Part shown: piece after piece, positions 4,430 through 55,008 of the stretch
Numbering within the stretch: position 1 is the first letter of the stretch
How the letters are laid out: each line of letters begins with the position of its first letter
Assembly (NCBI GenBank): GCA_035644415.1
Contig: DASQOP010000280.1
Coordinates: forward strand, 1-55,008
Origin: Burkholderiales bacterium
Lineage (GTDB): Bacteria; Pseudomonadota; Gammaproteobacteria; Burkholderiales; JACQAP01
Direction of reading: 5' to 3'
Length of the DNA stretch: 55,008 bases
Made by a program: the position numbers and the translations under genes
The notes under the pieces: generated by a model
What the model saw: only the letters and a program-made list of their open reading frames with translations
What the model was told of the DNA's origin: nothing
Databases searched by the model: none

Positions 4430-4836
4430 AAGCGTTGACTCCTGAAACCGCCGCCGCTGTCGTCGGCAAGCTCGCGTTGATGGCTTTCTTTCCTAGCGAC
4501 CCCGAGGTCCGCGCGGGGCTGGTCGCCATTTTCATAGAGATGGTTGAAACCGACGAGCAGATGGAGTGGCTGGGTAGCCGGGCGATGCGCATGTTTGCAC
4601 GCTGGCCTGGCGTGGCGGAAATCCGCGCGCTCTACTGTTCGCGGTACAAACCGAGGGACGGCCTCGAAAGTTACAGCGAGATTTACCCAGAGGGCTTCCC
4701 AACTGAACGAAAAGAGCCCGAGCCAGGCCGCGCTGCGCGTCGCGGCGAGCCGGTCACAGCGGACCCGGTCCTCGACCGTAAGATTCGGACAGTAGCAGCC
4801 AGCAAGAAGCTGAAGCCCGTCCGAAAGGGGCGATAA
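4426..4836 (+). CDS. hypothetical protein
   Basis: ATGA overlap with the upstream stop; in-frame part of track ORF 4345..4836. Confidence 0.6.
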   Translation: MKALTPETAAAVVGKLALMAFFPSDPEVRAGLVAIFIEMVETDEQMEWLGSRAMRMFARWPGVAEIRALYCSRYKPRDGLESYSEIYPEGFPTERKEPEPGRAARRGEPVTADPVLDRKIRTVAASKKLKPVRKGR

Positions 4837-29204: not shown

Positions 29205-29795
29205 CTAGAAGGGAAATTCGTCCCAATGAAAGTCGAGGGTCACGTTCGCCGCCTCAAAGTAGTGCGCTTGAATGCGTACCCGCTTTGCAGTCTGCAATTG
29301 AGCGATCAATTCCGATTGCCCGGTCCAGGCCGCGTTGGTCTGGTCATCGAATCGGAGCATCGTGAAATTCTGGACCGGCCCTTCATCGAAGCGAACGCGC
29401 AAAGGGCACACTATGCCGTAGCTTTTCCAATCCCCAATGAACTGGCCACGCTCCAGATGCAGGGACAAGATAAAGAGGCCCGGTTTCTCTTCGCTCACTC
29501 GCAATGTGCCATGCTGCGGCCCGTTGTAAGGGAAAGGAAACTCGACAAGATTGGTAGACCGCAGCGTGGCGAACCGCTGTTCGGTCCCATCCAGATCGTC
29601 GCGGGCGCCCCCGTGTTTCCACTGCTCCGGTTCTGGCTGCGCAGCCTCTTGATCCGGTTCCTTGGCAGCGGGCAGAGGAGCGGCGGGAACAGGAACCATA
29701 GCCGCTCGGCCGGAGTTGTAGGCAGTTGGGCGCTCCAGCCGGAACCAGTAACCCGCGCCTGCGGCGATCAGGACAATAAATATGAATCTGTGCAT
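29205..29795 (-). CDS. membrane-anchored moron protein of unknown function
   Basis: Opposite strand inside the tail operon; starts MHRFIFIVLIAAGAGYWF (signal-anchor), then a Pro/Glu-rich linker and a beta-rich domain; TACAAT lies 9 nt upstream. Confidence 0.6.
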   Translation of the reverse strand: MHRFIFIVLIAAGAGYWFRLERPTAYNSGRAAMVPVPAAPLPAAKEPDQEAAQPEPEQWKHGGARDDLDGTEQRFATLRSTNLVEFPFPYNGPQHGTLRVSEEKPGLFILSLHLERGQFIGDWKSYGIVCPLRVRFDEGPVQNFTMLRFDDQTNAAWTGQSELIAQLQTAKRVRIQAHYFEAANVTLDFHWDEFPF

Positions 29796-29869
29796 ACCAG
29801 TACCATTGTACCGGAATACGCTAAGTGCAGCCGGATGAAGGGGATACGCCGATGCAAAACGCAATCTGC

Positions 29870-29908
29870 AAAAATGGAAGGCGCGGTGGGTTATTTCTCG
29901 CGCCTTCC
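29870..29908 (-). terminator. intrinsic terminator on the - strand, directly after the array/palindrome
   Basis: GGAAGGCGCG-13 nt loop-CGCGCCTTCC followed by ATTTTT (read on the - strand). Confidence 0.6.
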
Positions 29909-29911
29909 TGT

Positions 29912-30013
29912 GTGCCATTGGCACCCTCGCCTTGCCGCACCGCGCCAAACCCAGCCATGGCTAGCCATGCCCAGCCGTGCCGAGCCTTGCCACGCCAGGC
30001 CCAGCCAAGCCCT
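29912..30013 (-). repeat. pentamer-phased G-rich array plus GTGCCAATGGCAC cap (copy A, inverted)
   Basis: On the - strand, 20 in-phase pentamers GGCTT GGCTG GGCCT GGCGT GGCAA ... GGCGA GGGTG CCAAT GGCAC. Confidence 0.85.
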
Positions 30014-30036
30014 AATGGACTTCACAATTATAGAGG

Positions 30037-30645
30037 ATGAAATCGATGTTTGATACCGCTGCAACCATTACCATCGGGCTGCGCGTGGCTGGCGCAGGGA
30101 AGACCGACATTACCGTGCGCTGGCCTTCCGACGAGGAATGGGCCATGCACCGCAAGCGCAGCAAGTTGATGATGCGCCAGATGGGCCGGGGCGCTTCGGA
30201 AATGGAGACCGACTCCAGCGCTGCCGACCAGAAGATGTATGAAGCCATCAAGCTCAACGGCGCGCCTCCCTTGACTGCGGGTGAAGCCACGACCATTATC
30301 CAGGCCATTGGCAAGTGCGACGTGCTGCGGGTGGATCTAGGTGCGGACGAGGCGGAGGCCGAGCTGCAAATCCTGACGGGCCGGGTGACGCACACCGTGC
30401 GCATCCCGACCCTCGACGAGGTGCGCAAGCTGCACCGTACGACGCGCTACCTAAACCTACCGTACAACTGCCAGGAGGTCCGCACCAGCATGGAAGCGGC
30501 GGCGGCGCTGTGGGATGCCTGCGGCGGGAAAGCGGACGGGTACGCCGGCGCGGTGCCGATTCTCCACAAGGATTCGGTGATCCGCCAGGTCATTATCGAA
30601 ATCGAGCGGGAAACAGCGGCGAGTTATGGCGAAGAAAATTTTTAG
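30037..30645 (+). CDS. tail assembly chaperone (gpG-like)
   Basis: Immediately upstream of the tape measure; ends in the slippery site A-AAT-TTT; alternative start ATG 30046 has better spacing to GAGGA. Confidence 0.65.
   Translation: MKSMFDTAATITIGLRVAGAGKTDITVRWPSDEEWAMHRKRSKLMMRQMGRGASEMETDSSAADQKMYEAIKLNGAPPLTAGEATTIIQAIGKCDVLRVDLGADEAEAELQILTGRVTHTVRIPTLDEVRKLHRTTRYLNLPYNCQEVRTSMEAAAALWDACGGKADGYAGAVPILHKDSVIRQVIIEIERETAASYGEENF
30636..30642 (+). promoter_or_regulatory. candidate -1 programmed frameshift site
   Basis: Heptamer A AAT TTT (X XXY YYZ) in the zero frame, one codon before the TAG stop. Confidence 0.5.
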
Positions 30646-31004
30646 CGGGCGGGGGTTGGCCGGCTCAACCTTCGCCGAGGTTTATCCTCCACCGAATGCT
30701 CCGCCGCGACCAACTGTGCCCCGGTTCTGGCGAATGCCCCGAGGCACTGATGCGCGATCCTTTCGCGGACGCCAACTCCCCGCCGTGCGACGAATGCCCG
30801 CTGGCGCTGCTGGACGAATATCTAGCGACCCCAGCAGGCCGGTTGATAGGCCTCACCATCGACCTGGATTTCGCAATGCAAGCGGGGGTGACCGTTAGCC
30901 TCCAAGACATCACCTACCCGGAGTTTTTGTTGCTCCGCTTCCTGAGCGAGGAGCGGAACCGCTTCCACGCGGAAGCGGCGGAGAGGGCGGCGCGTGGCCA
31001 GTAA
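30642..31004 (+). CDS. -1 frame extension of the chaperone (gpGT-like); could alternatively start independently at ATG 30696
   Basis: The -1 frame is open from the slippery site to 31004 and ends overlapping the tape-measure start; the C-terminal part is protein-like (..LLDEYLATPAGRLIGLTIDLDFAMQAGV..). Confidence 0.5.
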   Translation, partial: LAGGGWPAQPSPRFILHRMLRRDQLCPGSGECPEALMRDPFADANSPPCDECPLALLDEYLATPAGRLIGLTIDLDFAMQAGVTVSLQDITYPEFLLLRFLSEERNRFHAEAAERAARGQ

Positions 31005-34000
31005 CACGATTTACCTCCAAGTCGATTTCAACAGCGAGACCGCGCAGCAGAACGTCAACGCCCTCAATCAGTCGATTGCCACGACCGGCCCCACCGCAGA
31101 GAAAAGTTCCAAACAGGCCACCGCTGGCTTCCAGTCCATCGGCGTCTCGATTCAGAGCGTCAACCGGGAGTTCTCGCAGCTGACCTCTGCCCTGGCAGGA
31201 CTGGGGATCGCGCGCGTGATCGCCGGCATGGTGCAGATGTCTGCCGAGTTGAGCCGCACGCAGTTGGCTATGCAGTCGTTCACGGGGAGCGCGGCAGAGG
31301 CTAACAAGGTCTTCGAGCAGGTGCGCGCGATCGCGGCGACCAGCCCGTTCCGGTTCAAGGATCTGGAAGAGACGGCGCGCCAGTTGCTCGGCTTCGGCAT
31401 GGCCGCCAAAAACGTGCCCGACACGCTGCGCGTGATCACCGACCAGGTGGGCCGCATGGGCGGCTCGATTGAGAACGTCAACAACGTGGTGCGCCTCTTC
31501 GGTCGCATCATGGAAAAGGATTTCGTCGGAGCAATGGACCTGATGCGGGCGCTGCCGCAGCAGGGCGTGCAGGTGATGACCGCGCTGCGCGAGGCCATGT
31601 CGAAGCAGCTGGGCCGCGCCATCGACGTGGAGGGAGTTCGGGACGCGATTAAGGAAGGCATTCTGGACCCGCTGCAAACCATCCGCGTGGTGCTCGACTC
31701 CATGCGGAAGGCCGGCGGCTTCGGTGCTTCGCTGGCCGACGCCGCGCTGGCGTTCAAGAATATGGCCGACGCGGCTCAGAACGCGGTCAGCCAGCTGTTC
31801 GGGCCACAGGGCTTTGGACCGGCGCTTAGGAAGTTGGGCACTGAGATCGGCAACCTGCTGGCGCCGCTCGGCGGTCTGCTCGACTATCTGATGAAACTGC
31901 CGGATCCCACGAAGCTGGTGATCCTCCAAGTCTTGGCTGGGGCGGCGGCGGTCGCGGCCCTTGGCACTGCGCTCGCCATTGTCACTAGTCTAGCCAGCCC
32001 GCTGCTCAGTCTCACCGCGGCGATTTTCAAGTTCACGGTGGGACTGGCGACCATGAACCCGCAACTGGCCATTACGGTGGTGTTGCTCGGCACGTTGGCC
32101 TTTGCCGCCTATAAGCTGATCCCGCAATTCCAAGGGATGGTGGATACCCTGGTCGGCGGGGTGGCCGGCAAGATTAAAACGGCCCTGACCGGCCTGGCGG
32201 AACAGGGCAAGAAGTTCATGGCCGGGATTTTCAAGGGCGGGGGCCAGATCGAACCGGGCGATATCCTCGACACCGCCAAGCTGTTCGAGAAACTCCGTCT
32301 GGAGGAACAGAAACACGCTGATGCGGCGCAGCGCAGTTTACTCGAAGCGCTGGCCTCGCCGGTCGAGGCGGTGCGCCTGAAATACGCGACCCTCTTCAGC
32401 GAACTGGAGGAAAAGATCAAACTCCTTCCGCAGGCCCAGCAGCAGGCACTGCGCGCCATCCTGGTCGGTGCCGAAGTGACCGAGACGGCGGGGGCGAAAT
32501 TCAAGGAGCAGAAAAAGCAGGAGGACGAATTCACCCGCTATCAGGTGGAGCGCGCCAAGGGAGCGGCCGACGCGCAGGTGGCCTACATCGAGGCGCAGGA
32601 CGCTCAGGATCTGCGCAGCAAGGTGCGCAACATCGACCGCATCACCCAGATCCGCATGGACGCCGCGAAGCAGGTTGCGGACATCGAAAACAACAACCTG
32701 GAGGATCAATTCCACCGCTTCGAGAAGATGGCCAACGACTACCGCAAGCAGTTCGCCGCAGCGGGCGTGGACGTGGACAAGATGATCGAGGCCCACCGCA
32801 AAGAAACCGACGATAAGGAAGCGGCGGTGACCAGGAAGCAATTCGACGAGGGGCAGAAATACCGGCTGGAAGGGTGGAAGAAGGCTAACGATCTGATCAT
32901 CGAAGACCAGAAGCGGGTGTACGACGCCTTCAAGGATCAGTTCAGCCAACTGTTCGACGTGTTCACCGATAAGACCAAGAGCCTCGGTCAGGCACTGGGG
33001 GACTTCTTCAAAAAACTGGTGCTGGGCGAGGCCAAGGAGCTATTCGCCAGCCAACTGGCAGGGGTGGCCACCGCAGCGGCAGGTTATGGGCAGCCGCAGG
33101 AAAGCTTGGGCAGGGGTGGGCAGGGGATCCTGGGAACCCTGCTGCGTCGCGGGATGCCGCCGCGGCCACCCCTGCCGCCGCCAGACGTGCAGCAGATCAA
33201 CGCGACGCAGAGCGACATCTCGTTCCCGGTAGCCAGCGCGTTTCAGAACAGCACGCACAGCTACGAGATCGCTACCAACGCCTACTCCGACGCCACCATC
33301 CGTTTCGCGGAGGCGGTCAACAACTTCGCCGGCGCCACCGTGCAGCATGAGGGCAGCGCCGACCGCATGGCGGATACCACCACCACCATGAAGGAGGCCT
33401 TTCAGACAGCCAGCGGGGCCACCGGCGTGCCGCAGACTCTCTTGCGGGCCGTGGCGCAAGCCGAGTCCAGTATGAGACCGGGGGCCGTCTCGTCCGCAGG
33501 CGCAATGGGCCTCATGCAGTTGATGCCCGGGACGGCCCGCGAACACGGCGTGACCGACGTGTTCAATGTCGGGCAAAACGTGATGGGCGGCGCACAACAC
33601 CTGCAGGAGATGCTCACCCGCTACCACGGCAATGTGCCGCTGGCGCTGGCGGCTTACAACATGGGCGCGCACGCTTTAGACCAACGGTTGGCTTCCGGTC
33701 GTGCGCTGCCCGCGGAGACTAAGGCCTACGTCGCCCGCATCACGCAGCTGATGGCAGCGGCACCCGAAGCGGCTGGTGGCGGTGGCGCCGATCTCCTTCC
33801 TGGCGGTGAGGACGCCCGCTATCTCGCGGCCACTGGCGGCGGGGGCGCTCCCGCGGTTACGATGGCTCAACTGGCAGCGTTGCCGCAGCGCGCCCAGCCA
33901 CTGTTTCTGCCAGGTGTGCCCAGCTTTCAGGCGGAAGGCGCGGGAGCCGTCACCGGGCCCAGCGTGGCGGAACTGGCCAACCTGCCGATGGGTCTCACGG

Positions 34001-35154
34001 CACTGCAAAGGTTGAGTCCGTCCCTCTTGCCCCTGCTAACCGGCGCGTTGAAGGCGGGAGGAGCCACCACGGGCGCGGGCGGAGTGAATCTGGCGGGTCT
34101 GAACATACAGAATCTCTCGAAGCTCGGGCAGTTCTTCGGCATCTACGGCAAGGGAGTCACGTCGGCCGGCAGCATCCTGACCTCCCCGGCAGCGGGCACG
34201 CTGGCGCTAATGGCAGGCATGGGACTGGCCAGCAAAGGGTTGCAGCAGCACTACGCACCCGCGACGGTGGCGGGCGGCGCGCTGGCGGGCGCGGGGATGT
34301 TTCTGACCAATCCGAGTATGATCGCGCGCGCCAGTGAGATGCCCGGCGGGGTCGGCCTTGGCATCGGCGCGGCGGCGGCGACCGGCGCAGGCCTGGGGTT
34401 GTTCGCCAGCGGGTTCCAGCGCGGCGGCGGCACTGGCCTCGCAATGGATATCGGCGGCGGCGCACTGGCGGGCGCGGGCATCGGCACCATGATCCTGCCC
34501 GGACTCGGCACCGCCATCGGCGCGGCTATCGGAGCCGGGGTGGGCGCGATCACAGGCATTGTGCGCCTGTTCGTGCATACCGAGCAAGAGCGGATCCGCA
34601 CCGGCATCAAGCAGGTCTACGGCATCGACATCTCCAACCGCCAGATCCTCACCCAGATCCAGCAGATCGTGGATCAGAAGTACGGCGGCAGCGTGACGAT
34701 CGGTATCCGGTCCCAGGACGTGCAAGACATCGTGCGGCTGTATGCCCTCTCGACCGGGCAAGCGGCGAACCTGCCGCGGCCCATGTATGCCGCCACCATC
34801 GCGCAGTCGCAGGCGGGAGGCCTCGCCACCCAGCCGGTCTATCAGGGCGGCGTGCTGGTGCAGAATCCCTACACCGGCCCGACCACCTACCAATACCAGA
34901 CCGCCGTCACCGCCGCGCAGGGGCTGATGGCGGGCACCAGCCAGGGCGTGCCGGGAGCCGGCGGGCAGGTGAGCAGTATTTTCATGCAGCTGAATCCGCA
35001 GCAGGCCAACGATCTATTCACGGGCCGGGTGGTACAGGCGGTGCAGCAGAACCCCGCGGCGGTTGCTTCCGCCAACGCTTCCGCCACCCGGGCGGGAGAC
35101 AGCCGGGTGTCGCAAGCCTCGAACATGTTGGAGCCGTTGACGAGTTTAAGTTGA
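30994..35154 (+). CDS. tape measure protein with an internal SLT lytic transglycosylase domain
   Basis: 1386 aa, helical N-terminal half, Gly/Ala-rich hydrophobic C-terminal segments; ..AQAESSMRPGAVSSAGAMGLMQLMPGTAREHGV..AAYNMG.. (about 33430-33690) is an SLT catalytic motif. Confidence 0.9.
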   Translation: MASNTIYLQVDFNSETAQQNVNALNQSIATTGPTAEKSSKQATAGFQSIGVSIQSVNREFSQLTSALAGLGIARVIAGMVQMSAELSRTQLAMQSFTGSAAEANKVFEQVRAIAATSPFRFKDLEETARQLLGFGMAAKNVPDTLRVITDQVGRMGGSIENVNNVVRLFGRIMEKDFVGAMDLMRALPQQGVQVMTALREAMSKQLGRAIDVEGVRDAIKEGILDPLQTIRVVLDSMRKAGGFGASLADAALAFKNMADAAQNAVSQLFGPQGFGPALRKLGTEIGNLLAPLGGLLDYLMKLPDPTKLVILQVLAGAAAVAALGTALAIVTSLASPLLSLTAAIFKFTVGLATMNPQLAITVVLLGTLAFAAYKLIPQFQGMVDTLVGGVAGKIKTALTGLAEQGKKFMAGIFKGGGQIEPGDILDTAKLFEKLRLEEQKHADAAQRSLLEALASPVEAVRLKYATLFSELEEKIKLLPQAQQQALRAILVGAEVTETAGAKFKEQKKQEDEFTRYQVERAKGAADAQVAYIEAQDAQDLRSKVRNIDRITQIRMDAAKQVADIENNNLEDQFHRFEKMANDYRKQFAAAGVDVDKMIEAHRKETDDKEAAVTRKQFDEGQKYRLEGWKKANDLIIEDQKRVYDAFKDQFSQLFDVFTDKTKSLGQALGDFFKKLVLGEAKELFASQLAGVATAAAGYGQPQESLGRGGQGILGTLLRRGMPPRPPLPPPDVQQINATQSDISFPVASAFQNSTHSYEIATNAYSDATIRFAEAVNNFAGATVQHEGSADRMADTTTTMKEAFQTASGATGVPQTLLRAVAQAESSMRPGAVSSAGAMGLMQLMPGTAREHGVTDVFNVGQNVMGGAQHLQEMLTRYHGNVPLALAAYNMGAHALDQRLASGRALPAETKAYVARITQLMAAAPEAAGGGGADLLPGGEDARYLAATGGGGAPAVTMAQLAALPQRAQPLFLPGVPSFQAEGAGAVTGPSVAELANLPMGLTALQRLSPSLLPLLTGALKAGGATTGAGGVNLAGLNIQNLSKLGQFFGIYGKGVTSAGSILTSPAAGTLALMAGMGLASKGLQQHYAPATVAGGALAGAGMFLTNPSMIARASEMPGGVGLGIGAAAATGAGLGLFASGFQRGGGTGLAMDIGGGALAGAGIGTMILPGLGTAIGAAIGAGVGAITGIVRLFVHTEQERIRTGIKQVYGIDISNRQILTQIQQIVDQKYGGSVTIGIRSQDVQDIVRLYALSTGQAANLPRPMYAATIAQSQAGGLATQPVYQGGVLVQNPYTGPTTYQYQTAVTAAQGLMAGTSQGVPGAGGQVSSIFMQLNPQQANDLFTGRVVQAVQQNPAAVASANASATRAGDSRVSQASNMLEPLTSLS

Positions 35155-51282: not shown

Positions 51283-52003
51283 GCCTACACCGTCTTGGGC
51301 GGACGTTCGCAAGGGGATGGCGCGGATGGCCGAGAAGCAGCACGAGTGGGCCGGCTTCCCGATGCCGGTCGAGGGCATGTCGATGCAGATCCATCCGAGC
51401 TATCCGTTCGCGGAGAACCTCAGCAAGACCTTTCTGCCGAAACCGTCCCTGCGCATGTGCCGCGATTCGGACGTGTGCGAAGAGACGCGCCTACGGAACC
51501 GCTGGAACTCCTACCGCGACGGTAAGGAGATCCTGATCGTCCAGGAGCGCGGGAAGTTTTTCTTTCTCTACTCGCCGGTGCAGAACAGCGGGCCGATGCT
51601 GCTGCAAACGGTGAGCGCCGCGCGGGCGTGGGATTTCGAGGCCGAGCTTCGCGCGATGGAGACACTCAAGCGGCACGTTACCGAGTGGGCGTTTCAGTGC
51701 TACGTGATGACCGGCTCGTTCCTTGAAACCTCGAAGCGCTCGGGGGTGGTGTACCTGTTCCGGCGGTTGCGGCCTACGATTGCCTTGACTGGCAAGCCCG
51801 ACAAGAACCGCCGCGATGTCGGGATGCGGATCCTCTGCACGCTCTGCGCTCACCCCATCGGTTACTACCGCGATTCGTGGGCCGGCGCCCTGGTGCCGAC
51901 CGACGATGTGCTGAGTCACCTCTTGCTCATGAGGGCCGATGAAAAGTTTTTTTGGCGCAATAGCAATCAACATCCGGCGTGGGCGCCGGAGTCGGGGTTA
52001 TAA
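51275..52003 (+). CDS. hypothetical protein
   Basis: GTG start 7 nt after GGAGG; 242 aa. Confidence 0.65.
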   Translation: MARPTPSWADVRKGMARMAEKQHEWAGFPMPVEGMSMQIHPSYPFAENLSKTFLPKPSLRMCRDSDVCEETRLRNRWNSYRDGKEILIVQERGKFFFLYSPVQNSGPMLLQTVSAARAWDFEAELRAMETLKRHVTEWAFQCYVMTGSFLETSKRSGVVYLFRRLRPTIALTGKPDKNRRDVGMRILCTLCAHPIGYYRDSWAGALVPTDDVLSHLLLMRADEKFFWRNSNQHPAWAPESGL

Positions 52004-52093
52004 AACCGCGATGGCGATGACACCAGCGCGGCGAGGTCAGGCGGAGGCAGGGCTCGGCAGGGTTTTTTGAAAAGAAGGTTTTTAATTTGCCGG

Positions 52094-52183
52094 GGCAGGG
52101 TGTGGCACGGCTGGGCACGGCACGGCCGGGCAGGGCAGGGCAGGGCAGGGCAGGGTACGGCGAGGCGAGGGTGCCAATGGCAC
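52094..52183 (+). repeat. pentamer-phased G-rich array plus GTGCCAATGGCAC cap (copy B)
   Basis: 18 in-phase pentamers including (GGCAG)x5; palindrome at 52171-52183; a shorter array remnant lies at 52030-52063. Confidence 0.9.
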
Positions 52184-52214
52184 AAATCAACTAAGAAGGG
52201 CAGAAACAACAACT

Positions 52215-52883
52215 ATGAGAACCATTGAAGTGGAACTTACCAGCGAAATGCCGCTCTTAATGCACGCGGATAACATCGACTGGGCAGACAAGATGGAAGA
52301 CTGGAAGAACGATCCCAAGAACAAGAGTAAGTCAAAGCCAGGAGACGATAGAACTCCCGCCTGGAGGTGGCTCGGGTGCCTAAACTACGATGATCCGAAG
52401 ACCGGCGTCGTGACCGTTCCATCCGAATACATCATGCGGTGCCTCATGGGAGGCGCAGCGGAAGTACCGACCGGCAAGGGCCGGAAGACCTTTAAGGAAC
52501 TGAGCCAGAGCGGCATTCTATGCGAAAAATTTCACTGGCCTTTGCTAATCAATGGGGAAAAGAAGCCGGTGCGAATGGAGGATATCAATCAATTATTGAA
52601 GGTCCCCCGTTTCCCGGACCAGGTCGAGGGCGCTAAGGCGCTGGGCTTCTCTCTCTTTGTCAAACGCGCAAGAGTCGGCAATAACAAACATATCCGAGTC
52701 CGGCCGCGTTTTGACGATTGGAGTACGAGAGGTGAACTGATGATCATCGACGATCAGATCACCAATGATGTGGTCGCTAGTATTCTCGACATCTCGGGAA
52801 GGTTGAAGGGTCTTGGAGATTGGAGGCCGAGCGCTAAGACTCCGGGACCGTTCGGGACGTTCAAGGCGAAGATTGTGAGTTAA
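52215..52883 (+). CDS. accessory (cargo) protein of unknown function
   Basis: 222-aa ORF, visibly lower GC than its surroundings, 31 nt downstream of the palindrome. Confidence 0.7.
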   Translation: MRTIEVELTSEMPLLMHADNIDWADKMEDWKNDPKNKSKSKPGDDRTPAWRWLGCLNYDDPKTGVVTVPSEYIMRCLMGGAAEVPTGKGRKTFKELSQSGILCEKFHWPLLINGEKKPVRMEDINQLLKVPRFPDQVEGAKALGFSLFVKRARVGNNKHIRVRPRFDDWSTRGELMIIDDQITNDVVASILDISGRLKGLGDWRPSAKTPGPFGTFKAKIVS

Positions 52884-52978
52884 GGCATGGCTCGGCGCGG
52901 TAGGGTCGGGCTGGGCCTGGCCTGGCAAGGCCGGGCGCGGTGCGGCATGGTTGGGCAGGGCGAGGGTGCCAATGGCAC
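52884..52978 (+). repeat. pentamer-phased G-rich array plus cap (copy C)
   Basis: 19 in-phase pentamers starting the base after the stop codon; palindrome at 52966-52978. Confidence 0.9.
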
Positions 52979-52996
52979 AAATGAAAGGAGGAAGTT

Positions 52997-53491
52997 ATGA
53001 GTCATGGATTTCGCGGCGGCATTCCCTACGCGGTTGACGTGAACCGCCTGAAGGATGCTTTCCCGGTGCCGATGCTCGCCGAAGGGCGAGTCATTGAACA
53101 TGCCGACTTAGAAGAAATCGTGAAGGCGAAGAGGGGCGGGCAGCGCTACTACGGAGTCATCAACTCCTGGATCAATAGCATGAAAAACACCAACGGAATT
53201 TTCATGACCTGGGAGACGTCGGTGGGCGTAAAGGTTCTGGGCCCGGCGGAAATTCTAGCTCACGCTGAGATCAGGACCCGGCAGAAGATCAAGCAGACCG
53301 GCAATGCGGTGAAGACCTTCGTATGGGTCGACCGAACGAGATTGGACAGCACGGGGCAGCAGCGTTTGGATCACCAGGAGCGCGTCGCCAACGCGATCAG
53401 GGATGCGCTGAACACTGCCAGAAAAGATTTGGCGATAGACCTGGCGCCGGTAAAGTCTCTGCCAAAACCGAAAATGATTCGGGAGGCCTGA
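52997..53491 (+). CDS. accessory (cargo) protein of unknown function
   Basis: AGGAGG RBS; ATG 18 nt after the palindrome; 164 aa, lower GC. Confidence 0.7.
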   Translation: MSHGFRGGIPYAVDVNRLKDAFPVPMLAEGRVIEHADLEEIVKAKRGGQRYYGVINSWINSMKNTNGIFMTWETSVGVKVLGPAEILAHAEIRTRQKIKQTGNAVKTFVWVDRTRLDSTGQQRLDHQERVANAIRDALNTARKDLAIDLAPVKSLPKPKMIREA

Positions 53492-53498
53492 AGAAGTT

Positions 53499-53599
53499 TG
53501 GTCCGGTCGGGCTCGGCAAGGCCCGGTGGGGCTAGGCGTGGCGGGGTGCGGCTAGGCAAGGTTGGGTATGGTACGGCGAGGCAAGGGTGCCAATGGCAC
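53499..53599 (+). repeat. pentamer-phased G-rich array plus cap (copy D)
   Basis: 20 in-phase pentamers; palindrome at 53587-53599. Confidence 0.9.
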
Positions 53600-53615
53600 A
53601 CGGGATTGTGATTTC

Positions 53616-53701
53616 GGTACGGCGAGGCGAGGCCTGGCAGGGTGTGGGCATGGTGTGGCGAGGCGAGGCGAGGTATGGCAGGGCGAGGGTGCCAATGGCA
53701 C
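53616..53701 (+). repeat. pentamer-phased G-rich array plus cap (copy E)
   Basis: 6 + 11 pentamers with a single 1-nt phase slip; palindrome at 53689-53701. Confidence 0.9.
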
Positions 53702-53726
53702 ATGAGAATTCATTTCGTAAGGTTTG

Positions 53727-53873
53727 CGGCGAGGGCAGGGCAAGGTCGGGTCAGGCTCGGCTCGGTCAGGCAGGCCAAGGCTGGGTCAGGTCAGGTGGGG
53801 TGGGGCATGGTCGGGCTCGGTCAGGCAAGGCCGGGCAGGGCAGGGTACGGCGAGGCGAGGGTGCCAATGGCAC
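53727..53873 (+). repeat. pentamer-phased G-rich array plus cap (copy F)
   Basis: 28 pentamers in one phase; palindrome at 53861-53873; a 6-7 unit remnant lies at 53906-53940. Confidence 0.9.
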
Positions 53874-53982
53874 GAACGGGATGTTTGCAAGTTCCGGCAA
53901 TGCGCGGCTGGGCTGGGCGCGGCGAGGCACGGCAGGCCAGGAGGAACCAGCGGGTTTCCAATGGGAAATGTCAAAATGAGCC

Positions 53983-54351
53983 ATGCAATCACAAAAGCCT
54001 AGTACAGAACAACAGGAGCGCCCGCAGCTTCCGTGGGGCATGGGCAGCGCCAGGATCAAGGGCCGCGTCTGGTGGATTACGTACCGAGATCCGAAAGGCA
54101 AGATACACCTCGAAAATTCCGGCACCGGGGATCCCGCCGAGGCCCAACGGATCATGGCACAGAAGGCTTTGCCACGAGCGTGGGCAATGGTCGCGGCCTT
54201 GGAGAAGTTAGCCAATGCAGAACCCCAAGGTCCCAACAGTAAGGGTGGTAAGCGGCCACGATCTGGATCTGTCGCGCCGGTCGGCACTGCGGCTGCTGCG
54301 GCTGCTCGAAAGGCTGGCGGCAAAGCGACTCGCAAGGGAGGCAAAGCGTGA
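53983..54351 (+). CDS. small protein with an integrase Arm-type DNA-binding-like domain and a Lys/Ala-rich tail
   Basis: ..KGRVWWITYRDPKGKIHLENSGTGDPAEAQRIMAQK.. resembles the N-terminal arm-binding domain of tyrosine integrases; stop overlaps the recombinase start (GTGA). Confidence 0.55.
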   Translation: MQSQKPSTEQQERPQLPWGMGSARIKGRVWWITYRDPKGKIHLENSGTGDPAEAQRIMAQKALPRAWAMVAALEKLANAEPQGPNSKGGKRPRSGSVAPVGTAAAAAARKAGGKATRKGGKA

Positions 54352-55008
54352 CGCGAAAGACTGATCTCCCTTGGTTCGTCTATATCCGGGTAAGCTCCAA
54401 AGACCAAGGCGACAAGTACGGGCCGTCGAGACAGATCGAGGCCATTCGGAACTGGCTGCAGGTCAATGTGCCCCATGTCCGCGTGCCGGGACTGGATACC
54501 TGCATCGCTGGGCCGCGCGATGTGCGGCAGTGCGAGTATGTTGGATTCGACAAGCAGAGCGGCAAGACCGACGAGCGGCCCGACTTTCAGCGCGGCTGCG
54601 AGTTAGCGAAGGCAGGCAGGATCGGCGGGTTCATTGCCCTCCGGTTGGATCGAGTGGCGCGCAATGCGGGAGACGCCTACCTGCTTCGCTCCAGGATGAA
54701 GCGCATGGGCGTGCGGCTGGAATTCGCCACCCAGACGTTCGACGCCACGCCGACCGGCGACCTGATGTATCAGGTGTACGCGAGTTTCGCGGAGTTAGAA
54801 GGGAAGCTGATTTTGGAGCGCACCGCGGATGGCCGCATGGGCCGTCTGTGCGGCGACAAGTTATTCCACAACCCCAACGCGATGCCTTACGGTTACCTCT
54901 ACGTGGATGAAGCGGTCGCGAAAAAGAATCCGGGCGCGGTCATCGGCAGGGCGATCATCAACGAGCAAGAGGCCAAGATCGTGCGCCTGATCTTCCGCTG
55001 GTACGTGG
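54348..55008 (+). CDS. large serine recombinase, N-terminal catalytic (resolvase) domain (3' end cut by window edge)
   Basis: My translation: VTRKTDLPWFVYIRVSSKDQ...GGFIALRLDRVARN...MYQVYASFAELEGKLILERT..; catalytic Ser motif, RxDR and the E-helix are all present; open to the last base. Confidence 0.9.
   Translation, partial: MTRKTDLPWFVYIRVSSKDQGDKYGPSRQIEAIRNWLQVNVPHVRVPGLDTCIAGPRDVRQCEYVGFDKQSGKTDERPDFQRGCELAKAGRIGGFIALRLDRVARNAGDAYLLRSRMKRMGVRLEFATQTFDATPTGDLMYQVYASFAELEGKLILERTADGRMGRLCGDKLFHNPNAMPYGYLYVDEAVAKKNPGAVIGRAIINEQEAKIVRLIFRWYV

What the first reader, a model, noticed from the sequence alone, without database searches (positions are those of the whole stretch)
52027..53945. 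Six copies of a strictly 5-nt-phased G-rich array, (GGYNN)17-29, each capped by the invariant 20-mer GGCGAGGGTGCCAATGGCAC
Read directly: 52094-52183, 52884-52978, 53499-53599, 53616-53701 and 53727-53873 (+ strand) and 29912-30013 (inverted) are runs of 17-29 consecutive pentamers that almost all begin GG (GGCAG GGCGA GGCTC GGTAC GGCAA ...). The phase holds without a slip for up to 28 units. It runs straight through the terminal palindrome (GGGTG CCAAT GGCAC = GTGCCA-A-TGGCAC). Unit sequences differ between copies, but the phase, the strand polarity and the last ~20 nt are conserved, so selection seems to act on the periodicity and the cap. Period 5 cannot be coding: it leaves all frames open and generates the artefactual track ORFs 53587..53979, 53642..54211 and 53724..54002. 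I know of no described phage or bacterial element with this architecture. It is not a CRISPR array, not a simple tandem duplication and not a canonical REP/BIME. Every copy sits at the edge of an accessory gene. Candidate roles are: (a) an RNA leader or intercistronic element wrapped by an oligomeric protein that reads one GG per 5 nt (TRAP-like logic); (b) G-quadruplex-forming DNA or RNA; (c) recombination or cassette-junction sites for moron exchange.
Basis: partly seen in the sequence, partly recalled or inferred. Interest (0 to 1): 0.85.

Follow-up and report, generated by a model that had tools for sequence, protein, structure and literature searches.

The report
Phage VIPR locus: GGYNN guide RNAs
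The G-rich five-base repeat arrays are real and are almost certainly the guide RNAs (vrRNAs) of a phage-encoded VIPR system, a CRISPR-like RNA-guided DNA-silencing system first described in two 2026 preprints, so this is a new example of a very recently described kind, not an unknown element.

Summary
Six arrays of in-phase GGYNN pentamers sit at the stated places, each ending in GGCGAGGGTGCCAATGGCAC (one has a single mismatch). No dinucleotide shuffle reproduces the phasing.

They match the vrRNAs of VIPR systems (bioRxiv 10.64898/2026.04.26.720920 and .720927): tandem GGY/NN repeats plus an invariant structured 3' tail, flanking a small RAMP-like gene (vipr) and an accessory gene (vap).

- **vipr:** ORF 52215..52883 is a full-length homolog of SUSP1 Vipr (pairwise E 1e-18). 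A profile of its clade hits the PDB chain "SUSP1 Vipr protein" at 7.7e-15. Its AlphaFold model matches only Cas7-type RAMPs, and the published GGY-binding residues are conserved.
- **vap:** ORF 52997..53491 weakly resembles SUSP1 vap1 (hhalign 71%).
- **Repeats and tail:** GGY is fixed and NN is near-random. The tail is a 5-bp hairpin with strong covariation.
- **Association:** 77 of 120 viral contigs picked by the DNA pattern alone carry a Vipr homolog beside the arrays.

I found no natural targets of the six guides. One guide from a related phage does match the start of this phage's vap gene under the published 1-nt-skip rule.

Ideas (b) and (c) are not supported. Verdict: new member of a known kind.

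The parts
52030..52062 (+). Short degenerate GG-phased remnant (GGCGA GGTCA GGCGG A GGCAG GGCTC GGCAG GG), followed by a T-run at 52063-52068. No tail. Probably a decayed vrRNA.
   Evidence: Read from the sequence. It does not reach the 8-of-10 in-phase GG threshold on its own.
52094..52183 (+). vrRNA1: 15 GGYNN units (52094-52168) plus the 15-nt tail GGGTGCCAATGGCAC (52169-52183). It lies 31 nt upstream of the vipr start codon.
   Evidence: This is the same position as vrRNA1 of phage SUSP1 (paper read).
52215..52883 (+). vipr: a 222-aa minimal RAMP (Cas7-like) protein, predicted to polymerise along the vrRNA with one protomer per repeat.
   Evidence: tblastn to the SUSP1 locus gives 100% coverage and E 7e-9. 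Pairwise BLASTP to SUSP1 Vipr gives E 1e-18. Clade profile A1 against PDB chain 36pp_D 'SUSP1 Vipr protein' gives E 7.7e-15. The AF2 model has pLDDT 84.7, and its top 50 Foldseek PDB hits are all CRISPR effector-complex entries, led by type III-A Csm chains (6ifn_E is the preprint's own Cas7 query) and Cas7-11/gRAMP. Residues H17, E71, R163, D202, W203 and R204 align with SUSP1 H17, E71, R138, D177, W178 and R179 (residue roles). Also matches phrog_4652 at 5e-22.
52884..52978 (+). vrRNA2: 16 units plus tail. It starts on the base after the vipr stop codon and ends 18 nt before the vap start.
52997..53491 (+). vap-like accessory gene (164 aa). The model shows a probable winged-helix domain followed by long helices.
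   Evidence: A conserved gene next to vipr in 8 related loci: downstream in six, upstream in L135/L136. Profile A4 against SUSP1 vap1: hhalign probability 71%, E 3.7e-5 over 74 columns. The AF2 model has pLDDT 89. Foldseek hits are weak (E >= 0.04) and mostly winged-helix DNA-binding regulators. No Pfam, PHROG, NCBIfam or PADLOC family.
53500..53599 (+). vrRNA3: 17 units plus tail. Its last unit is GGCAA, which is the one mismatch to the 20-mer.
53616..53701 (+). vrRNA4: 6 units (53616-53645), a 1-nt phase slip (53646), 8 units (53647-53686), then the tail (53687-53701).
53734..53873 (+). vrRNA5: 25 units plus tail, the longest in the window. It contains one non-GG unit (GCCAA).
53906..53967 (+). 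Degenerate seventh copy: 6 units (53906-53935), a 17-nt out-of-phase gap, then a tail-like hairpin GGTTTCCAATGGGAA (53953-53967).
   Evidence: Read from the sequence.
29912..30011 (-). Orphan vrRNA6: 17 units (30011-29927) plus tail (29926-29912). It lies on the opposite strand, 22 kb from vipr, among + strand genes between the head genes and the tape-measure gene.
30027..30032 (-). TATAAT box 15 nt upstream of the first unit of vrRNA6. This is a candidate -10 element of a promoter of its own; no good -35 is present.
   Evidence: Read from the sequence. The consensus scan, which needs both hexamers, did not call it.
29870..29908 (-). Terminator-like hairpin just 3' of vrRNA6: GGAAGGCGCG, a 13-nt loop, CGCGCCUUCC, then AUUUUU.
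   Evidence: The RNA fold of 29862-29931(-) is -29.3 kcal/mol, z = -4.1, and shows both the tail hairpin and the 10-bp stem. The scan tool missed it because it allows loops of at most 8 nt.
52991..53028 (-). Candidate site targeted by a vrRNA of a related phage (L139 1047-1111). It covers the vap start codon and the first 10 codons. The skipped bases fall on codon third positions.
   Evidence: 21 of 26 NN positions match under the 1-nt-skip rule, against 16-17 under the other skip rules. None of 4000 order-shuffles reaches 21.

Best explanation
Region 52.0-54.0 kb is a VIPR (Viral Interference Programmable Repeat) locus of a temperate tailed phage from an uncultured Burkholderiales MAG.

**Parts.** It holds vipr (52215..52883), a vap-like gene (52997..53491), five vrRNA genes around them, and a sixth vrRNA gene at 29.9 kb on the other strand.

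**Mechanism, taken from the two preprints and inferred here by homology.**
- Each array is transcribed in the G-rich sense.
- Vipr protomers polymerise along it, one per GGYNN unit. Each buries GGY, using the conserved H17, R163 and D202-W203-R204 residues, and exposes the NN dinucleotide.
- The 3' hairpin GUGCC-AAU-GGCAC, with the semi-conserved last GGCGA unit, acts as the invariant handle that caps the filament.
- The exposed NN dinucleotides pair with double-stranded DNA that reads NNxNNx..., skipping one base each time. The bound filament then blocks transcription of the target.
- Targets are expected in competing phages or other mobile elements.
- The vap-like protein probably assists at the DNA.

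**Shown here:** the anatomy, the homology, the covariation and the arrays-to-vipr association.

**Inferred:** expression, filament formation, the pairing rule for this clade, and the biological targets.
For: **Literature match.** GGY/NN repeats plus an invariant structured tail, flanking vipr and vap in phages.

**Protein.** Homology to the experimentally characterised SUSP1 Vipr. Cas7-like fold. Conserved GGY-contact residues.

**Locus layout.** Searches confirm that the SUSP1 locus has one array upstream of vipr and three downstream of vap, like this one.

**RNA features.**
- GGY is fixed and NN is near-random.
- The tail hairpin pairs in 100% of 155 cells across 31 distinct tails. All three unconstrained pairs covary, with 24 double changes and one G-U; 0 of 500 shuffles reach this.

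**Association.**
- In 8 related loci the arrays lie on the vipr strand and flank vipr and the vap-like gene.
- Of 120 viral contigs fetched by the DNA pattern alone, 77 hold a Vipr-HMM hit. In 76 of these it is on the array strand, at a median distance of 32 nt. A 155-kb control gave only the window's own gene.

**Consistency with the published rules.**
- No self-target in the window, as the paper reports for other systems.
- A related phage's vrRNA matches this phage's vap start only under the 1-nt-skip rule, in wobble register.

**Phage context.** Large terminase, portal, protease, major head protein, tape measure and serine recombinase are all present.
Against: **No target found for this phage's six guides.**
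- Five exact 11-unit patterns gave 0 hits in IMG/VR.
- One 10-unit pattern in JGI metagenomes gave only 4 chance hits.
- Nothing exceeded the null in 1.2 Mb of held loci, or among 196 Vipr and vap homolog proteins.
- Only exact matches could be searched in the big collections, so this is weak negative evidence.

**Other gaps.**
- No expression data. No sigma-70-type promoter is predicted in 51.8-54.4 kb.
- The link from the vap-like gene to vap1 is only moderate, with no hit to the LESphi2 neighbour.
- The arrays of 17 and 25 units (17 and 25 here, up to 28 in relatives) are longer than the 9-16 units described. The tail is a bare hairpin, not the ~40-nt pseudoknotted tail of SUSP1.
- Covariation in the tail fits a DNA palindrome as well as an RNA hairpin. 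Only one G-U pair speaks specifically for RNA.
Confidence: 0.92

Rival explanations
1. The arrays are cis-acting leader or intercistronic RNA elements. An oligomeric protein wraps them and controls translation or termination of the gene immediately downstream (TRAP-like or autoregulatory logic). They have no trans-acting guide function.
For: vrRNA1 and vrRNA2 end 31 and 18 nt before the vipr and vap start codons, next to their ribosome-binding sites. Vipr binding there could also affect their translation. An added autoregulatory role is not excluded.
Against: Three arrays (53500-53873) stand in tandem with no gene directly after each. The orphan at 29.9 kb has its own terminator-like hairpin and no adjacent start codon. 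The NN positions are near-random while GGY is fixed, which is what a programmable guide predicts and a fixed operator does not. No TRAP homolog is present. The homologous SUSP1 system was shown to act in trans on DNA.
Confidence: 0.04
2. The arrays work as G-quadruplex-forming DNA or RNA, for example as pause sites, as R-loop promoters or as blocks to exonucleases.
For: The arrays are G-rich on the sense strand. vrRNA1 contains GGGCAGGGCAGGGCAGGG. Two-tetrad quadruplexes are formally possible in all of them.
Against: Only 1 of 6 arrays has a canonical four-run G3 motif. The strict pyrimidine at position 3 and the exact 5-nt phase over 25 units are not needed for G4 formation. The tight linkage to a RAMP-like gene across 77 of 120 independent contigs is unexplained by this idea.
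Confidence: 0.02
3. The arrays are recombination or cassette-junction sites, or a decaying pentanucleotide microsatellite or host REP-like repeat, with no RNA function.
For: They lie between genes near the integrase end of the genome. Slippage of whole units would preserve the phase. Unit numbers vary from 4 to 28 among relatives.
Against: The exact cap is absent from 185,579 species-representative genomes except for chance coding hits. A decaying microsatellite would not keep GGY fixed while randomising NN, and would not keep a covarying hairpin at one end only. The flanking genes are the same two conserved genes in every related locus, not variable cassettes.
Confidence: 0.02

Closest known systems
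VIPR systems (Viral Interference Programmable Repeat): Vipr + vap + vrRNAs, as in Escherichia phage SUSP1 and Pseudomonas prophages (bioRxiv 10.64898/2026.04.26.720920 and 10.64898/2026.04.26.720927)
   Same: - A Vipr homolog with conserved GGY-contact residues.
- GGY/NN tandem repeats with an invariant structured 3' tail.
- Arrays on the vipr strand, upstream and downstream of a vipr-vap gene pair.
- Phage-encoded, with no self-target.
- The P. aeruginosa LESphi2 homolog also has a GGG-plus-hairpin directly after each array.
   Different: - Only 26-28% protein identity to SUSP1 and LESphi2 Vipr, with about 25 extra residues.
- Arrays of 14-25 units here and up to 28 in relatives, against the 9-16 reported.
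- The tail is a 15-nt hairpin that stays in the 5-nt phase (GGnnn CCnnn GGnnn), not a ~40-nt pseudoknotted tail.
- One vrRNA lies between vipr and vap.
- One orphan vrRNA lies 22 kb away on the other strand, with its own -10 box and terminator.
- The VIPR type (I-VII) could not be assigned, because the paper's tables are not held.
Class 1 CRISPR effector backbones (Cas7/Csm3/Cmr4 filaments on crRNA)
   Same: RAMP fold: the best structural matches are Csm3, Cas7-11 and type VII Cas7. One protomer binds per fixed RNA interval, a thumb flips out bases periodically, and a conserved structured handle sits at one end of the guide.
   Different: - No CRISPR repeat-spacer array and no other cas genes.
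- The period is 5 nt with 3 bases sequestered, not 6 nt with 1 flipped.
- The guide information is non-contiguous.
- There is no sign of an acquisition module.
TRAP-trp leader RNA (11 (G/U)AG triplets spaced 2-3 nt, wrapped around an 11-mer ring)
   Same: A protein oligomer reads a short G-containing motif at a period of about 5 nt on single-stranded RNA.
   Different: TRAP is a closed ring that acts in cis on attenuation and translation. Its motif is (G/U)AG, and its spacers carry no information. No TRAP-family protein is present here.
TIGR-Tas (tandem interspaced guide RNA systems of phages). Comparison from my own knowledge, not tested here.
   Same: Phage-associated, compact, RNA-guided DNA-targeting systems with unusual repeat-based guide arrays outside CRISPR.
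   Different: TIGR arrays encode guides read by a Nop-domain Tas protein, with two spacer halves pairing to both DNA strands. They have no GGYNN pentamer code and no RAMP protein.

Membership tests
VIPR system | Encodes a Vipr protein homologous to characterised Vipr (SUSP1) | tested here: met
   tblastn gives 100% coverage and E 7e-9 to the SUSP1 gene that its vrRNAs flank. Pairwise BLASTP gives E 1e-18. A clade-only profile hits PDB chain 36pp_D 'SUSP1 Vipr protein' at E 7.7e-15, the only significant PDB hit.
VIPR system | Vipr has a minimal RAMP fold (RRM core, glycine-rich loop, thumb) | tested here: met
   The AF2 model has pLDDT 84.7 and pTM 0.82. The top 50 Foldseek PDB matches are all CRISPR effector-complex entries, led by type III-A Csm chains (6ifn_E, the preprint's own Cas7 query, and 6ifn_F) and Cas7-11/gRAMP, plus type VII and Cmr entries. 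Best E is 9e-5 and TM is 0.37-0.49. The G-loop motif G-L-G-D-W-R-P is invariant or nearly so in the clade. TM scores are modest, so this shows fold-level similarity, not a detailed superposition.
VIPR system | Residues that bind G1, G2 and Y3 of each repeat are conserved (SUSP1 H17, R138, D177, W178, R179, E71) | tested here: met
   Alignment A5 pairs window H17, R163, D202, W203, R204 and E71 with them. H17, R163, D202 and R204 are invariant columns. SUSP1 K33 has no clear counterpart; it aligns to N32, next to K31.
VIPR system | vrRNAs made of tandem GGY/NN pentamers, with conserved GGY and hypervariable NN | tested here: met
   98 units: G 100%, G 98%, Y 100%, with entropies of 1.93 and 1.96 bits at N4 and N5. 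The phasing is absent from shuffles. Unit numbers of 14-25 exceed the 9-16 reported for the two characterised clades.
VIPR system | Invariant, structured 3' tail after the repeat tract | tested here: met
   The 15-nt tail is identical in all six copies. The 5-bp hairpin is 100% paired across 31 distinct tails from 9 loci. Three pairs covary, and 0 of 500 shuffles reach this. The tail is shorter and simpler than the SUSP1 tail.
VIPR system | vrRNA genes flank vipr on the same strand; the locus is minimal (vipr + vap) and phage-borne | tested here: met
   Window layout. The same layout holds in L132-L139. 76 of 77 Vipr hits in pattern-selected viral contigs are on the array strand. The phage structural genes are in the window.
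VIPR system | Accessory gene vap next to vipr, with a predicted DNA-interacting product | tested here: inconclusive
   The conserved 164-aa neighbour scores hhalign probability 71% and E 3.7e-5 against SUSP1 vap1. BLASTP gives only E 0.002, and there is no hit to the LESphi2 neighbour. The model resembles winged-helix regulators only weakly, with E >= 0.04.
VIPR system | Guides specify DNA targets by the 1-nt-skip rule; natural targets lie in competing mobile elements; no self-targeting | tested here: inconclusive
   No self-target. No target was found for the six guides with the exact-match tools available. A related phage's guide matches this phage's vap start at 21 of 26 positions only under the 1-nt-skip rule, in wobble register, with 0 of 4000 shuffles reaching that score.
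VIPR system | vrRNAs are expressed as RNAs of about 100 nt and co-purify with Vipr | not testable with these tools
   Needs RNA-seq and a pull-down. Indirect support only: the sense polarity, a -10 box and a terminator-like hairpin around the orphan copy, and one G-U pair in the tail stem.
CRISPR-Cas | Array of identical direct repeats separated by unique spacers, with cas genes (Cas1/Cas2 and effector genes) | tested here: not met
   No repeat-spacer organisation; the units are contiguous 5-mers. The neighbouring proteins have no Pfam, NCBIfam or PADLOC Cas family hits.
TRAP-regulated leader | About 11 (G/U)AG triplets spaced 2-3 nt, plus a TRAP (MtrB) protein | tested here: not met
   The motif is GGY, not (G/U)AG, and there are 14-25 units. 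No TRAP family hit among the six locus and neighbouring ORFs searched against Pfam.
REP/BIME-type host intergenic repeats | Many copies dispersed through the host chromosome | tested here: not met
   The exact cap is found in none of the 185,579 species-representative genomes except for 8 coding-sequence coincidences. The host species itself may not be represented.

The most novel reading that the evidence does not exclude
This Burkholderiales/soil-metagenome clade (over 1300 homologs at E <= 1e-3) may be a distinct VIPR variant with four features:
- a minimal tail, a 15-nt hairpin that stays in the pentamer phase and may be read as three pseudo-repeats;
- extended guides of up to 25-28 units, which would specify targets of about 75-84 bp;
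- guide genes dispersed in the genome as independent transcription units, like the orphan at 29.9 kb with its own -10 box and terminator;
- guides used by related phages to silence each other's vap genes at the start codon (L139 against window 52991-53028).
Probability: 0.4. Interest if true: 0.5.

Novelty: new member of a known kind. Interest (0 to 1): 0.45.

Why it matters
VIPR is a months-old discovery: a phage-borne, RAMP-based, RNA-guided DNA-silencing system proposed to predate CRISPR.

This locus shows that a reader working from sequence alone can find such systems, and that a plain DNA pattern, (GGYNN)n, retrieves them. 64% of the viral contigs picked by that pattern carry a recognisable vipr gene.

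It also adds an environmental clade with longer guides, a much simpler hairpin handle and a dispersed orphan guide. Those features are useful for defining the minimal requirements of the guide scaffold.

The candidate cross-phage hit on the vap start codon gives a concrete, testable case of VIPR-against-VIPR conflict. It also gives independent bioinformatic support for the 1-nt-skip, wobble-register rule outside the two clades studied experimentally.

Tried and rejected
**Annotation libraries that returned nothing useful**
- Rfam at gathering threshold, on the window and on seven related loci: no family, including no hammerhead.
- Pfam, NCBIfam and PADLOC on Vipr, vap and neighbours: nothing.
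- The paper's supplementary tables are not held, so I could not check whether HZF24049.1 is already in their set or assign a VIPR type.

**Host-repeat test**
- The exact 20-mer in GTDB representative genomes gave only chance coding matches, EGEGANGT in coding sequence of mostly Rhodobacteraceae genomes.

**Target searches for this phage's own guides**
- Five 11-unit NNx patterns (from vr2, vr3, vr5 twice, and vr6) in IMG/VR: 0 hits.
- One 10-unit vr6 pattern in JGI metagenomes: 4 hits that do not extend, at 22-23 of 34 positions.
- Mismatch-tolerant scans of the window and of 1.2 Mb of held loci under 0, 1 and 2-nt skips: null level.
- Peptide-level scan of 196 Vipr and vap homologs: null level.

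**Promoters and terminators**
- The consensus promoter scan found nothing in the locus.
- It missed the orphan's terminator-like hairpin because the loop is 13 nt.

**Ideas considered early and dropped once the protein link was clear**
- Antisense Rho-loading sites (the YC-rich complement).
- CsrA or Hfq sponge.
- Chi-like protection sites.
- Stoperator-like repressor sites at the palindrome.
- Analogy to immunoglobulin switch-region R-loops.

**Idea not generalised**
- The two non-GG units might mark fused vrRNAs. Relatives do not show this pattern generally.


Full report
**1. The observation**

I read 51800-55008 and the reverse strand of 29700-30300. The 20-mer GGCGAGGGTGCCAATGGCAC occurs six times, one copy with a single mismatch, against 0.01 expected. 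A scan for 50-nt windows with at least 8 of 10 in-phase GG dinucleotides picks out exactly the six places named and nothing else in 55 kb on either strand. There are 82 such windows, against none in 30 dinucleotide-preserving shuffles. The autocorrelation of G in the region is 0.22 at lag 5 and 0.16 at lag 10, with a shuffle sd of 0.02.

Written in register from the cap, the arrays have 15, 16, 17, 6+8 (a 1-nt slip at 53646), 25 and 17 GGYNN units. Each is followed by the 15-nt tail GGGTG CCAAT GGCAC, which stays in phase. Over 98 units, positions 1 and 2 are G (100% and 98%) and position 3 is always a pyrimidine. Positions 4 and 5 are close to random, at 1.93 and 1.96 bits.

There are two further degenerate pieces. 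One is 6 units at 53906-53935 with a tail-like hairpin at 53953-53967. The other is a remnant at 52030-52062.

**2. What surrounds the arrays**

The window is a whole contig of a Burkholderiales MAG; the two proteins are HZF24049.1 and HZF24050.1. It is a tailed phage genome:
- large terminase, portal, protease, major head protein and tape measure;
- RecE/RecT-like genes;
- a large serine recombinase whose gene is split over the contig ends.

Five arrays surround two + strand genes, 52215..52883 (222 aa) and 52997..53491 (164 aa). One array is upstream, one lies between them and three are downstream.

The sixth array is on the - strand at 29.9 kb. It has a TATAAT box 15 nt before it. Directly after it come a 10-bp hairpin and a U-run.

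**3. Is it a host repeat?**

No. The exact cap is not in any of 185,579 species-representative genomes, apart from eight coincidental coding matches.

In IMG/VR it occurs in one contig, L009. That contig carries six arrays with variant caps (GCGCC-UAU-GGCGC), which gave the first sign of compensatory change.

Arrays were almost always on one strand per contig and often lay directly before a ribosome-binding site.

**4. Identification**

[quoted passage not shown] I also found its cryo-EM companion (10.64898/2026.04.26.720927). Together they describe VIPR systems:
- a small phage-encoded RAMP homolog (Vipr) and an accessory gene (vap);
- vrRNAs of about 100 nt, made of 9-16 GGY/NN repeats followed by an invariant structured tail;
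- one Vipr protomer per repeat, which sequesters GGY;
- NN dinucleotides that pair with double-stranded DNA while skipping one base per unit, which silences transcription of competing phages.

**5. Testing membership**

*Vipr protein.*
- The 222-aa protein aligns end to end with a hypothetical protein of phage SUSP1 (tblastn E 7e-9; BLASTP E 1e-18).
- I checked that this SUSP1 gene is the one flanked by one upstream and three downstream GGTNN arrays, as the paper describes.
- A profile built only from the window's clade hits PDB chain 36pp_D, named 'SUSP1 Vipr protein', at E 7.7e-15. It hits nothing else.
- The AlphaFold model (pLDDT 84.7) matches CRISPR effector-complex entries throughout its top 50 PDB hits. 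These are led by type III-A Csm chains (including 6ifn_E, which the authors used as their Cas7 query) and Cas7-11/gRAMP, with type VII and Cmr entries. The best E is 9e-5 and TM is 0.37-0.49.
- The residues that hold G1, G2 and Y3 in the SUSP1 structure (H17, R138, D177, W178, R179, E71) align with H17, R163, D202, W203, R204 and E71 of the window protein.

*vap-like protein.*
- The 164-aa neighbour is conserved next to vipr in eight related contigs; in L135/L136 it lies upstream of vipr.
- It resembles SUSP1 vap1 only moderately: hhalign 71% probability, E 3.7e-5.
- Its model (pLDDT 89) weakly resembles winged-helix DNA-binding regulators. I rate this feature inconclusive.

*The tail.*
- I anchored 31 distinct tails from nine loci on GG-NNN-CC-NNN-GG-NNN, which leaves three stem pairs unconstrained.
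- All 155 cells pair and all three free pairs covary. There are ten stem types, 24 double changes and one G-U, and 0 of 500 shuffles reach this.
- The two inner pairs were fixed by the anchor. A DNA palindrome would covary in the same way.

*Association.*
- Of the 120 viral contigs selected by DNA pattern alone, 77 encode an ORF that matches a Vipr HMM.
- 76 of those are on the array strand, at a median of 32 nt from an array.
- A 155-kb control of unrelated loci plus the window returned only the window's own gene.

**6. Targets**

None of the six guides has a site in its own genome under any skip rule, as the paper reports for other systems.

I could search the large collections only for exact patterns:
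- five 11-unit blocks gave nothing in IMG/VR;
- a 10-unit block gave four hits in JGI metagenomes that do not extend;
- scans of the held loci and of homolog proteins stayed at null level.

The reverse test gave one notable result. A 13-unit vrRNA of related locus L139 matches window 52991-53028 at 21 of 26 NN positions, or 20 of 22 without the two handle-proximal units.
- This happens only under the 1-nt-skip rule; other rules give 16-17.
- None of 4000 order-shuffles reaches 21.
- The site covers the start codon and first ten codons of the vap-like gene, and every skipped base falls on a codon third position.
- At peptide level, the same guide fits the N-termini of vap homologs.
- Given 327 arrays tested, this is suggestive, not proven. 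[quoted passage not shown]

**7. Rivals**

- *TRAP-like cis leader.* It does not explain the tandem downstream arrays, the orphan with its own terminator, or the random NN.
- *G-quadruplex.* Only one of six arrays has a canonical motif, and the fixed pyrimidine is unexplained.
- *Cassette junction, microsatellite or REP.* The conserved flanking genes, the fixed GGY with random NN, and the one-sided covarying hairpin all argue against these.

**8. How this locus differs from the described examples**

- Longer arrays: up to 25 units here and 28 in relatives, with a clade median of 15.
- A bare in-phase hairpin tail instead of a pseudoknotted tail of about 40 nt.
- A vrRNA between vipr and vap.
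- An orphan vrRNA far from the locus on the other strand.

**9. Verdict**

The element is real and functional-looking. With high confidence it is a VIPR locus. It is a new member of a kind described only months ago, so it is not categorically new.

Noticed in passing
window 52991-53028 (match to the - strand); L139 1047-1111: [quoted passage not shown] L139's own vap start differs, so it would not hit itself.
   Followed up: partly
window 54348-55008 and 1-1047: A large serine recombinase gene is split across the contig ends. The N-terminal resolvase part is at the 3' end and the C-terminal part at the 5' end, with roughly 10 residues missing between them. Another public copy of the contig is 55,208 bp. 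The sequence is probably a circular or circularly permuted phage genome.
   Followed up: partly
window 29205-29798 (-): A - strand ORF of 197 aa, hydrophobic near its N-terminus when read by eye, lies downstream of the orphan vrRNA and its terminator-like hairpin, among + strand genes between the head genes and the tape-measure gene. It has no PHROG hit. It may be a moron carried together with the orphan guide.
   Followed up: partly
window 34749-34841 (-): ARAGORN reports a 93-nt 'tRNA-???' with a 4-base anticodon inside the tape-measure ORF (30994..35154). This is probably a false positive.
   Followed up: no
window 53734-53873 and 29912-30011(-): The only two non-GG units among 98 (GCCAA in vrRNA5, GCCAT in vrRNA6) are each followed by GGCTG. 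Together they resemble a tail hairpin that lost one loop base. The long arrays may have arisen by fusion of two vrRNAs. Relatives do not show this generally.
   Followed up: partly
L096 1400-1811; L112 around 4719-4787 (its - strand): In other viral contigs picked by the (GGYNN) pattern, arrays are followed by a tRNA-like T-arm (GGTTCGAnnCC), and ARAGORN calls atypical tRNAs there. These may be vrRNA arrays interspersed with tRNA-like processing elements. The preprint mentions hammerhead-interspersed arrays but not these.
   Followed up: partly
L124 3221-3510; L098 2217-3406: Extreme array forms occur elsewhere: a single in-phase run of 55 units (L124), and 14 tandem GGTNN arrays sharing the tail GGAATGGTTTAATGAATTTAAT in an AT-rich contig (L098).
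   Followed up: no
window 53600-53615 and 53874-53890: The spacers after vrRNA3 and vrRNA5 share ACGGGATnGT directly after the tail. This could be an extension of the handle or a processing site.
   Followed up: no
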